Shown: positions 15,903-17,113 of the stretch, piece after piece
Numbering within the stretch: the first letter of the stretch is position 1
Layout of the letters: each line of letters begins with the position of its first letter
Assembly: GCF_003018255.1 (NCBI RefSeq)
Contig: NZ_CP027440.1
Strand: one strand, 5' to 3'
Length of the DNA: 64,000 nucleotides
Source: Escherichia coli
GTDB lineage: Bacteria > Pseudomonadota > Gammaproteobacteria > Enterobacterales > Enterobacteriaceae
The notes under the pieces: generated by a model
What the model saw: only the letters and a program-made list of their open reading frames with translations
Database searches by the model: none
What the model was told of the DNA's origin: nothing
Program-made: the position numbers and the translations under genes

Positions 15903-17113
15903 GATTTTTATCAAAGTCTGTTGTTCTGTTTTTTTGTGTTTATATGGTAACTCCATATGCCAAATCTCAGGAATGCATTATGGATGATTACTTCAATAAG
16001 ACTAATATTTTTTCTTCTTATATTCTGGAACAAGAGCATAATAAGAACGAAGAATCTAATAATGTTGCCTCACTTTTACCAAGTATGTCTATTGGTTTGG
16101 GGCAGTATATTAATAATAATAAGAGATTGTCTACTTTCGGGGATAGTGATATATATTTCTCTCTTTCACAGGATATATTTTCTGCATATAAATATAAAAA
16201 TAATAAAGATAAATTAGCCATCCAAAATAACCTGCAAAATTTAGAGTTGCAGAGAAAAAGATATGAGTATTTGTTGGGTTTTTACTATAGCAGCATTAAT
16301 TATACATATCAACTTGAACAAATTCAGTTAACTAAAAAACAAATCCAAAAACTAGAGACAGATTACAATATATCTAAAGAATTATTTAAGATGGGTAAAG
16401 CACCTTATCTTGACACGGAAATAAAAGGAAATAATCTAGATAAAATGAGAAATACACTTAATGAAGTGGAACTGGAAAGGCAGTATTCTCTAATGAAGAT
16501 TAAAAGTGATTATTCTGTCCCAGAAGAATTGTTGCACAAAGTAACAATTGAAGATATAAAAGCGTGTAAAAGATCAAGTATTATAGAATTAGTCAAAAAT
16601 ATTTATAAAAAAAAGAATGAGTCAGTCGATATTGATAACAAAATTAGTGAGTCATCACTCTTACCATCGTTATATTTCTCTGTAGGTTTAACTCCTAAAA
16701 ATGGTGGGACATTGAGCGATATCAGCCTTAGAGAAATGGATTATAACGCTAGTATTAGTGTGAATGTGCCGTTGAGCGATTTTTTTTCATCATTCAACAG
16801 TAAAAAAACAAATGCAATTAATTCAATGAAAAACAATATTGATAACCTTAATGATTTTAGAGAGCTTGAGTTGTTACGTTTTGATATCAATAACAAACTT
16901 CATATCATAAAGAATAAAATTCCGATTCTTAAAAATAATTTATATATAAAAAACAAAGAACTAAACTATATTTCTGAAAGAGTAAAAAATAAGAAAGAAA
17001 GTGTACTTACGTATTACTCACTACAGGATGATATTTATGAAATTGAGCTTAATATCAAAAGAAATGAAAATGAACTTATGTATTATGAACTTTATCTTGA
17101 TTTTCTTGGTTAG
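15899..17113 (+). CDS. aatA: TolC-like outer-membrane factor (AatA-like)
   Basis: 404 aa; signal peptide (MRFLSKSVVLFFCVYMVTPYAKS), long coiled-coil-rich sequence typical of OMF proteins; AT-rich codon usage. Confidence 0.6.
   Translation: MRFLSKSVVLFFCVYMVTPYAKSQECIMDDYFNKTNIFSSYILEQEHNKNEESNNVASLLPSMSIGLGQYINNNKRLSTFGDSDIYFSLSQDIFSAYKYKNNKDKLAIQNNLQNLELQRKRYEYLLGFYYSSINYTYQLEQIQLTKKQIQKLETDYNISKELFKMGKAPYLDTEIKGNNLDKMRNTLNEVELERQYSLMKIKSDYSVPEELLHKVTIEDIKACKRSSIIELVKNIYKKKNESVDIDNKISESSLLPSLYFSVGLTPKNGGTLSDISLREMDYNASISVNVPLSDFFSSFNSKKTNAINSMKNNIDNLNDFRELELLRFDINNKLHIIKNKIPILKNNLYIKNKELNYISERVKNKKESVLTYYSLQDDIYEIELNIKRNENELMYYELYLDFLG

What the first reader, a model, noticed from the sequence alone, without database searches (positions are those of the whole stretch)
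17001..17113. Adaptor gene start overlaps the outer-membrane factor gene 3' end
The HlyD-like gene's open frame begins well inside the preceding gene. Candidate starts at 17067, 17073 and 17085 all precede the upstream stop at 17113, implying at least a 29-nt out-of-frame overlap and translational coupling, or alternatively an unrecognised downstream start.
Basis: seen in the sequence. Interest (0 to 1): 0.25.

Follow-up and report, generated by a model that had tools for sequence, protein, structure and literature searches.

The report
Real aatA–aatB gene overlap
The adaptor gene (aatB) of a dispersin-type secretion operon really does begin inside the end of the outer-membrane gene (aatA), most likely 77 bases inside; this is a conserved family trait already present in public annotation, not a new kind of feature.

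Summary
The window carries a chromosomal, AT-rich aat operon (dispersin-like gene, aatP, aatA, aatB, aatC, aatD). The aatB frame is open from 16986. It lies +1 relative to aatA, whose stop is TAG 17111-17113.

In-frame ATGs are at 17028, 17037, 17064, 17070 and 17085.

The overlap is real:
- The hydrophobic core of the AatB signal peptide (17073-17120) straddles the aatA stop.
- The next in-frame start after the stop, ATG 17175, would delete the signal peptide and the invariant YYGVLHG motif.
- All 19 homologous loci examined have the same +1 overlap.
- Synonymous change in aatA collapses over its last 15 codons (8% against 44%).

The most likely start is ATG 17037, a 77-nt overlap, with an AGGA Shine-Dalgarno 8 nt upstream. 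ATG and AGGA are conserved in seven lineages. In three of those lineages it is the only ATG ahead of the hydrophobic core. ATG 17064/17070 (the family's older start position) remain possible. RefSeq's 17085 is least likely.

Coupling by ribosome unwinding is plausible but untested. This is ordinary biology and low interest, apart from being a probable genuine co-directional overlap longer than 60 nt.

The parts
14331..14693 (+). Dispersin/CexE-like substrate gene. Its signal peptide ends AFA and is followed by GGSGW.
   Evidence: ORF, translation. Homologous loci carry a PF28204 Dispersin gene at the same place. No Pfam hit for this copy at E<=0.01.
14775..15902 (+). aatP, FtsX/MacB-like permease. 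Its stop overlaps the aatA start by 4 nt (ATGA).
15899..17113 (+). aatA, TolC-like outer-membrane factor. Stop is TAG 17111-17113.
   Evidence: Pfam OEP, E=3.3e-11. ORF. Stop checked.
17025..17028 (+). AGGA Shine-Dalgarno-like element inside aatA codons CAG GAT, 8 nt upstream of ATG 17037.
   Evidence: Duplex with the anti-SD is -4.1 kcal/mol at spacing 7, the best of all candidate starts in the window. The (C/G)AG GA sequence is kept in window, L001, L002, L020, L008, L021 and L022.
17037..17849 (+). aatB, periplasmic adaptor, from the start favoured here (270 aa). Stop is TGA 17847-17849.
   Evidence: An ATG lies exactly 36 codons before the YYG motif in nine lineages. RefSeq uses this start in strain JNE112863. 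Pfam HlyD_3. 48% identity over the full length to EAEC AatB.
17037..17113 (+). Favoured 77-nt dual-coding zone: aatA in frame 0 and aatB in frame +1.
17064..17072 (+). Alternative starts ATG 17064 (50-nt overlap) and ATG 17070 (44-nt overlap, the position of the ATG in ETEC and EAEC homologues). Only a weak A-rich upstream region.
17076..17078 (+). TTA codon at the position (38-nt overlap) where most divergent lineages have their TTG start. That start is lost in this lineage.
   Evidence: Sequence.
17085..17087 (+). ATG used by RefSeq/PGAP for the near-identical locus (3 substitutions in 2,201 bp, none in the overlap zone) in strain DETEC-S792 (29-nt overlap). It has no SD and yields a signal peptide without an n-region.
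17073..17120 (+). Hydrophobic core of the AatB signal peptide (LCIMNFILIFLVSFFS). It straddles the aatA stop codon.
   Evidence: Kyte-Doolittle scan.
17136..17141 (+). Predicted signal-peptidase I site, A-F-C / D. The mature protein would begin at Asp35 (17139).
   Evidence: Inferred from the -3/-1 rule and from homologues with VNA/ET, CFA/DT, VYA/DV and ANA/GD just before the YYG motif. Not tested.
17846..18475 (+). aatC, ABC ATPase. Its GTG start overlaps the aatB stop by 4 nt (GTGA).
18484..19704 (+). aatD, Lnt-like N-acyltransferase.
   Evidence: CN_hydrolase. TIGR00546 lnt, E=3.5e-9, below cut-off.

Best explanation
aatB is translated from a start codon inside the 3' end of aatA, in the +1 frame. 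That start is most probably ATG 17037, served by the AGGA at 17025-17028, giving a 77-nt overlap. The overlapped stretch encodes only the AatB signal peptide. The hydrophobic core of that peptide uses the T-rich wobble positions of the last aatA codons as its second codon positions, so AatA pays for the overlap mainly at synonymous sites. Initiation is de novo at an internal ribosome-binding site. Ribosomes finishing aatA would keep that site unfolded (coupling by unwinding). The signal peptide is then removed, so every candidate start yields the same mature periplasmic adaptor. Shown: the overlap itself, its conservation, and dual-coding constraint over the last ~15 aatA codons. Inferred: the choice of 17037, signal-peptide cleavage, and coupling. 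The confidence given (0.55) is for the full statement including the 17037 start; that a genuine overlap of at least 29 nt exists I hold at about 0.95.
For: 1. Geometry. The frame is open from 16986. The hydrophobic core 17073-17120 spans the aatA stop. There is no in-frame start between 17107 and 17175.

2. Conservation. All 19 intact homologous loci have aatB starting inside aatA in the same phase. They include EAEC, ETEC and metagenomic lineages down to about 30% identity. Published coordinates for Salmonella, Yersinia and Citrobacter also show overlaps of 29-104 nt.

3. Constraint. Among window, L001 and L002, aatA-synonymous variability is 1/13 in the last 15 codons against 109/245 elsewhere (p=0.009). 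In independent pairs it is 12/52 against 383/912 (p=0.008), and in ancestral-type lineages 3/31 against 314/652 (p=1e-5). T at aatA wobble positions in the last 12 codons is 63% against 37% gene-wide.

4. For 17037 specifically:
- ATG plus AGGA/GAGGA 5-7 nt upstream is conserved in window, L001, L002, L020, L008, L021 and L022.
- It is the only ATG ahead of the hydrophobic core in L008, L020 and L022, and the only start codon of any type there in L008.
- EAEC and L007 have an ATG at the same codon position, and this is the RefSeq aatB start in EAEC.
- The lineage has lost the older TTG start (TTA at 17076) and the Lys that follows it in other lineages. Only upstream starts therefore give a positively charged n-region.
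- Synonymous change in 17037-17069-equivalent codons is 3/18 against 41% gene-wide (one-sided p=0.03). In the same zone of lineages where the frame is closed it is 12/21 (p=0.01).
- PGAP itself chose 17037 when aatA was truncated.
Against: - No experimental start-site data exist for any aatB that I could find.
- The ATGs are natural by-products of xAT-GAx dipeptides (Y-E, N-E) in AatA, and TAT is the preferred Tyr codon (70 of 87). ATG conservation alone is therefore weak evidence.
- AGGA is a modest SD (-4.1 kcal/mol, only about the 10th percentile of all positions in the operon).
- The extension-zone constraint test is small and its significant version is post hoc. It omits the EAEC/L007 pair, where 6/9 synonymous sites differ. 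With that pair included, the result is 9/27 against 42%, not significant.
- L002 has a strong AAGGAG SD serving the 17070-equivalent ATG (-8.2 kcal/mol), so close relatives may use the 44-nt start.
- L008, the lineage that forces the 77-nt start, has lost aatD to an IS element and may be decaying.
- The local RNA fold shows no significant structure to be unwound (z=-0.23).
Confidence: 0.55

Rival explanations
1. aatB starts at ATG 17070 or ATG 17064 (44- or 50-nt overlap). This is the family's older start region, and the upstream ATG 17037 is an untranslated by-product of the AatA sequence.
For: The alignment places the ETEC start Met and the EAEC Met12 opposite 17070. Most divergent lineages start 38-44 nt inside aatA with a strong AAGGAG SD. 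L002 keeps that SD for its 17070-equivalent ATG (-8.2 kcal/mol). Gene callers start most family members at profile positions 11-17. The strongest synonymous constraint covers exactly the last 15 codons. From 17064 the peptide MKMNLCIM... has a normal short n-region.
Against: In the window the SD upstream is degenerate (AAAGAAA, -0.9 to -1.9 kcal/mol). From 17070 the signal peptide has no positive charge. 17064 is GTA in L001 and GTG in L002, so it is not conserved. L008, L020 and L022 have no ATG at these positions.
Confidence: 0.3
2. aatB starts at ATG 17085 (29-nt overlap), as RefSeq/PGAP annotates the near-identical locus in E. coli DETEC-S792 and the 80%-identical plasmid copies.
For: Annotation. 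The ATG is conserved in window, L001, L002 and L020. It gives the shortest overlap with an ATG.
Against: There is no SD (+0.4 kcal/mol). The peptide would start inside the hydrophobic core (MNFILIF...) with no n-region. L008, L021, L022 and EAEC have no ATG at this position. PGAP moved to 17037 for the same aatB sequence when aatA was frameshifted, which shows the choice is driven by an overlap penalty.
Confidence: 0.08
3. There is no overlap. The true start lies downstream of the aatA stop.
For: One gene caller did this for homologue L020, choosing an ATG 61 nt after the stop.
Against: The first in-frame start after 17113 is ATG 17175 (residue 47). It removes the whole signal peptide and the invariant G39, L41 and G43 of a protein that must reach the periplasm. 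Synonymous constraint in the aatA tail shows the second frame is read.
Confidence: 0.01
4. The locus is a decaying island, and the overlap zone is conserved only through recent common ancestry, not function.
For: The island is flanked by IS remnants. One of the three near-identical genomes carries a 2-bp deletion that truncates aatA. L008 lacks aatD.
Against: All six reading frames are intact in the window. Constraint on the overlap is seen between lineages with 30-55% synonymous divergence elsewhere in the same gene.
Confidence: 0.03

Closest known systems
aatA/aatB of the EAEC pAA plasmid Aat dispersin exporter (E. coli 55989, O104:H4, 042)
   Same: Same gene order (aatPABCD). Same +1 out-of-frame overlap. 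An ATG lies at the same codon position, 36 codons before the YYG motif. AatB is 48% identical over its full length.
   Different: EAEC AatA is 9 codons longer, so the annotated overlap is 104 nt rather than 77. There is no AGGA upstream of the EAEC start. The EAEC operon is plasmid-borne with aap elsewhere, whereas here it is chromosomal with the substrate gene immediately upstream.
aatA/aatB of the ETEC H10407 CexE exporter and of the divergent metagenomic Aat lineages
   Same: Overlap in the same phase. The signal-peptide core is encoded across the aatA stop. There is strong synonymous constraint on the aatA tail.
   Different: Those lineages start at TTG 38 nt (or ATG 44 nt) inside aatA behind a strong AAGGAG SD, with stop codons closing the frame just upstream. 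The window lineage has TTA at that codon, a degraded SD, and an open, ATG-initiated 11-codon extension.
holD/rimI overlap of Enterobacteria, reported as the longest genuine co-directional overlap (32-56 bp) by Palleja et al. 2008 (PMC2478687)
   Same: A conserved co-directional overlap in which the downstream N-terminus is encoded in the upstream C-terminal codons. It was validated by orthologue comparison.
   Different: If 17037 is used, the aat overlap (77 nt, or 104 nt in EAEC) exceeds the 60-bp limit above which that study found no real co-directional case. Here the overlapped part is a removable signal peptide.
MacAB-TolC tripartite pump (MacA adaptor)
   Same: AatB is a MacA-like periplasmic adaptor working with a MacB/LolC-like ABC permease and a TolC-like duct (Icke et al. 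2021; Pfam hits).
   Different: That comparison concerns protein function, not gene layout. In my recollection macA and macB do not show this arrangement, and tolC is unlinked (own knowledge, not tested here).

Membership tests
Aat (AatPABCD) dispersin/CexE lipoprotein secretion system | Five genes: FtsX/MacB-like permease, TolC-like outer-membrane protein, periplasmic adaptor, ABC ATPase, Lnt-like acyltransferase. | tested here: met
   Pfam FtsX + MacB_PCD (both sub-threshold), OEP, HlyD_3, ABC_tran and CN_hydrolase (sub-threshold), in the order P-A-B-C-D. lnt-like hit for aatD. DNA and protein similarity to annotated aatA/B/C of EAEC.
Aat (AatPABCD) dispersin/CexE lipoprotein secretion system | A small Sec-dependent substrate whose mature N-terminus is glycine, the site acylated by AatD. 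| tested here: inconclusive
   The 120-aa ORF at 14331-14693 has the signal peptide MKKYILVSLMGLSLNAFA followed by GGSGW. The equivalent genes in L017, L020 and L022 hit PF28204 Dispersin. This copy gave no Pfam hit at E<=0.01. Cleavage and acylation were not tested.
AatB adaptor family | Full-length homology to experimentally studied AatB (EAEC, ETEC), including the N-terminal YYG-x-L-x-G and C-terminal LLDTAFEI motifs. | tested here: met
   tblastn gives 48% identity over residues 1-269 to EAEC aatB and 32% to ETEC H10407. Invariant columns are listed in alignment A1. No AatB-specific NCBIfam model matched; only a weak RND_mfp hit appeared.
Genuine co-directional overlapping gene pair | Both frames are protein-coding across the shared nucleotides, seen as suppressed synonymous change in the upstream gene. 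| tested here: met
   Met for the last ~15 aatA codons (1/13 against 109/245, p=0.009; p=0.008 and 1e-5). For codons 17037-17069 the evidence is only suggestive (3/18 against 41%, p=0.03, post hoc).
Genuine co-directional overlapping gene pair | The overlap is conserved among orthologous pairs, and gene lengths are consistent with orthologues (criterion of Palleja et al. 2008). | tested here: met
   19 of 19 intact loci overlap in the same phase. The 270-aa length matches the 254-273 aa of homologues.
Translationally coupled gene pair | Translation of the downstream gene depends on translation of the upstream gene. | not testable with these tools
   Only context is available. The SD and start lie inside aatA. 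There are 4-nt overlaps at aatP/aatA and aatB/aatC. No significant local RNA structure was found.
Translationally coupled gene pair | Stop and start codons adjacent or overlapping (ATGA/TAATG type), allowing termination-reinitiation. | tested here: not met
   The aatA stop lies 29-77 nt downstream of every candidate aatB start.

The most novel reading that the evidence does not exclude
The aatA-aatB pair in this clade (77 nt here; 104 nt in EAEC) is a genuine, conserved co-directional overlap longer than 60 nt. A genome-wide survey found no real example in that class (Palleja et al. 2008). On this reading it arose by migration of the start codon from an older TTG 38 nt inside aatA to an ATG 39 nt further upstream, after the older start and the Lys of its n-region were lost.
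Probability: 0.5. Interest if true: 0.3.

Novelty: already known. Interest (0 to 1): 0.17.

Why it matters
The practical value is for annotation. The same aatB DNA sequence carries two different RefSeq starts (17085 and 17037), depending only on whether aatA is intact. Some gene callers push homologues past the overlap and so delete the signal peptide. Anyone cloning, deleting or tagging aatA or aatB must take note: the last 26 codons of aatA cannot be altered without touching the aatB ribosome-binding site and signal peptide. An aatA deletion that removes its 3' end will therefore be polar on aatB. It is also a clean example of how a signal peptide can be written in the wobble positions of an AT-rich upstream gene, and a probable exception to the rule that co-directional overlaps above 60 nt are artefacts. 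None of this changes how the Aat system is understood.

Tried and rejected
- **Genome-contig scan.** A scan with the AatB alignment found no confirmed relatives. I reached other lineages instead through a profile search of protein representatives and exact-sequence contig look-ups. L019 was discarded because its aatA/aatB junction is disrupted.
- **NCBIfam.** It has no model that places the AatB N-terminus. Only a weak RND_mfp hit appeared, so no profile-start test was possible.
- **RNA folding of 16990-17130.** There is no structure beyond shuffles (z=-0.23), so a hairpin-masked RBS was dropped as an argument for coupling.
- **Lipoprotein reading of the Cys before DVYYG.** Rejected. The -1 residue is Phe or Lys in different lineages, and the Cys is absent in L008 and ETEC.
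- **GTG 17001 and ATG 17028 as starts.** Rejected. They have a poor SD or none, are not conserved outside the close clade, and the codons between 16986 and 17036 show no synonymous constraint (4/9 against 44%).
- **Lys/Arg richness of the 11-codon extension.** Rejected as evidence of translation. It is a compositional by-product of the A-rich AatA codons.
- **Original Aat paper.** The Nishi et al. 2003 paper (J Biol Chem) is not held. The two held Aat papers never discuss the overlap.

Full report
**What is in the window**

Positions 14331-19704 carry a complete aat-type operon, all on the + strand:
- a 120-aa dispersin/CexE-like gene (14331-14693)
- aatP (14775-15902)
- aatA (15899-17113)
- aatB (frame ends 17849)
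- aatC (17846-18475)
- aatD (18484-19704)

Pfam gives FtsX/MacB_PCD (sub-threshold), OEP, HlyD_3, ABC_tran and CN_hydrolase (sub-threshold) respectively. The island is about 30% G+C in a roughly 50% G+C chromosome. It sits between ybdK and entD and is flanked by IS remnants in near-identical E. coli chromosomes. The Aat system is a known composite secretion system. In it, AatD acylates the N-terminal glycine of Aap/CexE. AatPC (MacB/LolC-like), AatB (periplasmic adaptor) and AatA (TolC-like) then export the substrate (Icke et al. 2021, PMC7943197; Belmont-Monroy et al. 2020, PMC7478709).

**Checking the observation**

The aatA stop is TAG 17111-17113. The aatB frame is +1 relative to aatA and is open from 16986. 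In-frame ATGs lie at 17028, 17037, 17064, 17070 and 17085, and GTG 17001 is the first start-type codon.

Its 17067 and 17073 are each 3 nt too high, and 17037 was missed.

The open frame is more than chance. The off-frame stop frequency in the operon gives p about 0.03 for 42 open codons. Only 0.16% of synonymous recodings of the AatA tail keep the frame open.

**The overlap is real and obligatory**

- **Signal-peptide position.** The hydrophobic core of the AatB N-terminal signal peptide (17073-17120) straddles the aatA stop. The next in-frame start after the stop is ATG 17175 (residue 47). Using it would remove the export signal and the invariant G39, L41 and G43 of the YYGVLHG motif. The downstream-start alternative is therefore refuted.
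- **Conservation in homologues.** I collected 19 intact homologous loci:
  - plasmid copies at 80% DNA identity (L001, L002)
  - EAEC (L006)
  - ETEC (L010-L013)
  - other E. coli plasmid lineages (L007-L009)
  - metagenomic or draft-genome lineages reached through a profile search (L014-L018, L020-L022)

  In every one, aatB starts inside aatA in the same phase.
- **Published coordinates.** The gene-position table of Icke et al. shows overlaps of 29 nt (Salmonella), 50 or 77 nt (Yersinia enterocolitica), 77 nt (Citrobacter rodentium), 44 nt (ETEC) and 104 nt (EAEC). The paper's text never mentions overlap.
- **Dual-coding constraint.** Among window, L001 and L002, amino-acid-invariant aatA codons vary synonymously at 109/245 sites over most of the gene, but at 1/13 in the last 15 codons (p=0.009). 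In independent pairs the figures are 12/52 against 383/912 (p=0.008). In lineages with the shorter overlap they are 3/31 against 314/652 (p=1e-5).
- **How the overlap is accommodated.** aatA wobble positions are aatB second codon positions. They are 63% T in the last 12 aatA codons against 37% elsewhere (the sequences are related, so the nominal p is inflated). T at second position specifies hydrophobic residues, so the signal-peptide core is written largely in aatA's synonymous sites.

**Which start?**

Anchoring all loci on the YYG motif reveals two states.

1. **Shorter-overlap state.** Ten lineages belong here: L009, the ETEC group L010-L013, and L014-L018.
   - They have a TTG 35-38 nt inside aatA. 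ETEC additionally has an ATG at 44 nt.
   - A strong AAGGAG-type SD precedes it (-5.6 to -9.3 kcal/mol).
   - In nine of the ten, stop codons close the frame 3-6 codons upstream; in L017 the frame stays open 16 codons upstream and contains an SD-less ATG at a 71-nt overlap.
   - A short Lys-containing n-region follows.
   - I take this to be the older state. That is an inference from its breadth, not from a rooted tree.

2. **Longer-overlap state.** The window belongs to a clade (window, L001, L002, L020, L008, L021, L022) with these features:
   - That codon is no longer a start (TTA at 17076).
   - The downstream Lys is gone.
   - The frame stays open upstream.
   - An ATG lies exactly 36 codons before YYG, preceded at 5-7 nt by CAGGA or GAGGA.
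   - All six Gln codons at that site are CAG, although CAG is the minority Gln codon in the operon (18 of 43). The seventh lineage has GAG, against a background of 23 GAG of 89 Glu codons.

In L008, L020 and L022 this is the only ATG ahead of the hydrophobic core, and in L008 it is the only start codon of any kind. In L022 a stop lies three codons upstream. EAEC and L007 have an ATG at the same codon position. There the overlap is 104 nt because AatA is nine codons longer, and this is the RefSeq aatB start.

In three independent pairs of the 77-nt clade, synonymous change in the 11-codon extension is 3/18 against 41% gene-wide (one-sided p=0.03). In the same zone of lineages where the frame is closed it is 12/21 (p=0.01). 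This subset was chosen after seeing the data. With the EAEC/L007 pair included, the effect is not significant (9/27).

RefSeq annotates 17085 in strain DETEC-S792. For the same aatB sequence in strain JNE112863, where a 2-bp deletion at 16953-16954 truncates aatA, it annotates 17037. The 17085 choice thus reflects an overlap penalty, not evidence.

**Weighing the starts**

| Start | Overlap | Probability |
|---|---|---|
| ATG 17037 | 77 nt | about 0.55 |
| ATG 17064 or 17070 | 50 or 44 nt | about 0.3 |
| ATG 17085 | 29 nt | under 0.1 |
| Downstream of the aatA stop | none | about 0.01 |

More than one start may be used.

Arguments against 17037:
- AGGA is only a modest SD.
- The ATGs arise automatically from Y-E and N-E dipeptides in AatA.
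- L002 retains a strong SD for its 17070-equivalent ATG.
- L008 may be a decaying locus.

**Mechanism**

Initiation must be de novo at an RBS inside aatA. The stop is 29-77 nt downstream of any candidate start, so the classical stop/start reinitiation geometry is not met. That geometry is seen at aatP/aatA (ATGA) and aatB/aatC (GTGA).

Coupling through unwinding by aatA-translating ribosomes is plausible but unsupported by any predicted structure (z=-0.23).

Homologues have typical AXA-type sites immediately before the D/E-x-YYG motif, and the window has A-F-C/D. I therefore infer cleavage before Asp35 (17139). If so, all candidate starts give the same mature adaptor, and the start choice affects only export efficiency and expression level.

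**Comparison with what is known, and novelty**

The locus is a member of the Aat family. The overlap is already present in public annotation of this very sequence and of the reference EAEC operon, so the finding is already known and ordinary.

One mildly notable point remains. Palleja et al. (PMC2478687) found no genuine co-directional overlap above 60 bp in 338 genomes and named holD/rimI (32-56 bp) as the longest real one. The aatA-aatB pair is a good candidate for a genuine 77-104-nt case, apparently created when the start codon moved upstream.

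Noticed in passing
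window 14331-19704 (flanks 13000-14300 and 19850-20700): The aat operon forms a roughly 30% G+C island in a roughly 50% G+C chromosome. It lies between ybdK and entD and is bordered by IS4/IS5 and IS630 pseudogene remnants. Only 3 of 5,426 complete E. coli genomes carry it at >=99% identity, all on the chromosome, whereas the other aat operons found are on plasmids.
   Followed up: partly
window 14331-14693: The substrate candidate lies directly upstream of aatP. It is a 120-aa protein with signal peptide ...NAFA followed by GGSGW, so its mature N-terminus would be glycine as required for AatD acylation. It gave no Pfam hit at E<=0.01, although the equivalent genes in related loci hit PF28204 Dispersin.
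   Followed up: partly
window 15899-15980: RefSeq starts aatA at 15980 in both near-identical genomes. That removes the signal peptide MRFLSKSVVLFFCVYMVTPYAKSQ. The ATG at 15899 overlaps the aatP stop by 4 nt (ATGA), as in EAEC, and is the more plausible start.
   Followed up: partly
window 14775/14805 and 18484/18603: RefSeq also disagrees with itself on the aatP and aatD starts between strains DETEC-S792 and JNE112863 (aatP 14775 against about 14805; aatD about 18603 against 18484), although the DNA is nearly identical.
   Followed up: no
L004 (E. coli JNE112863) at window-equivalent 16953-16954: A 2-bp deletion frameshifts aatA and truncates it before the aatB start, so this strain probably has a non-functional Aat duct.
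   Followed up: partly
L020 2501; L022 2501; L007 (protein P0015): Automatic gene callers avoid the overlap. They start aatB homologues after the aatA stop (L020, losing the signal peptide), inside the hydrophobic core (L022, a TTG start with a 29-nt overlap), or at a later in-frame TTG just upstream of the core (P0015, 65-nt overlap, giving a signal peptide with no charged n-region). Many database AatB sequences are therefore probably N-terminally truncated.
   Followed up: partly
L008 (plasmid NZ_CP027438.1) 2890-3756: In this relative, aatC is followed by an IS100 istA gene instead of aatD, so the operon appears truncated.
   Followed up: no
L006/L007 aatA 3' ends: EAEC-type AatA proteins carry 9 extra C-terminal codons (…HISNTGKM) compared with all other lineages. 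This lengthens the overlap to 104 nt without moving the aatB start relative to the YYG motif.
   Followed up: partly
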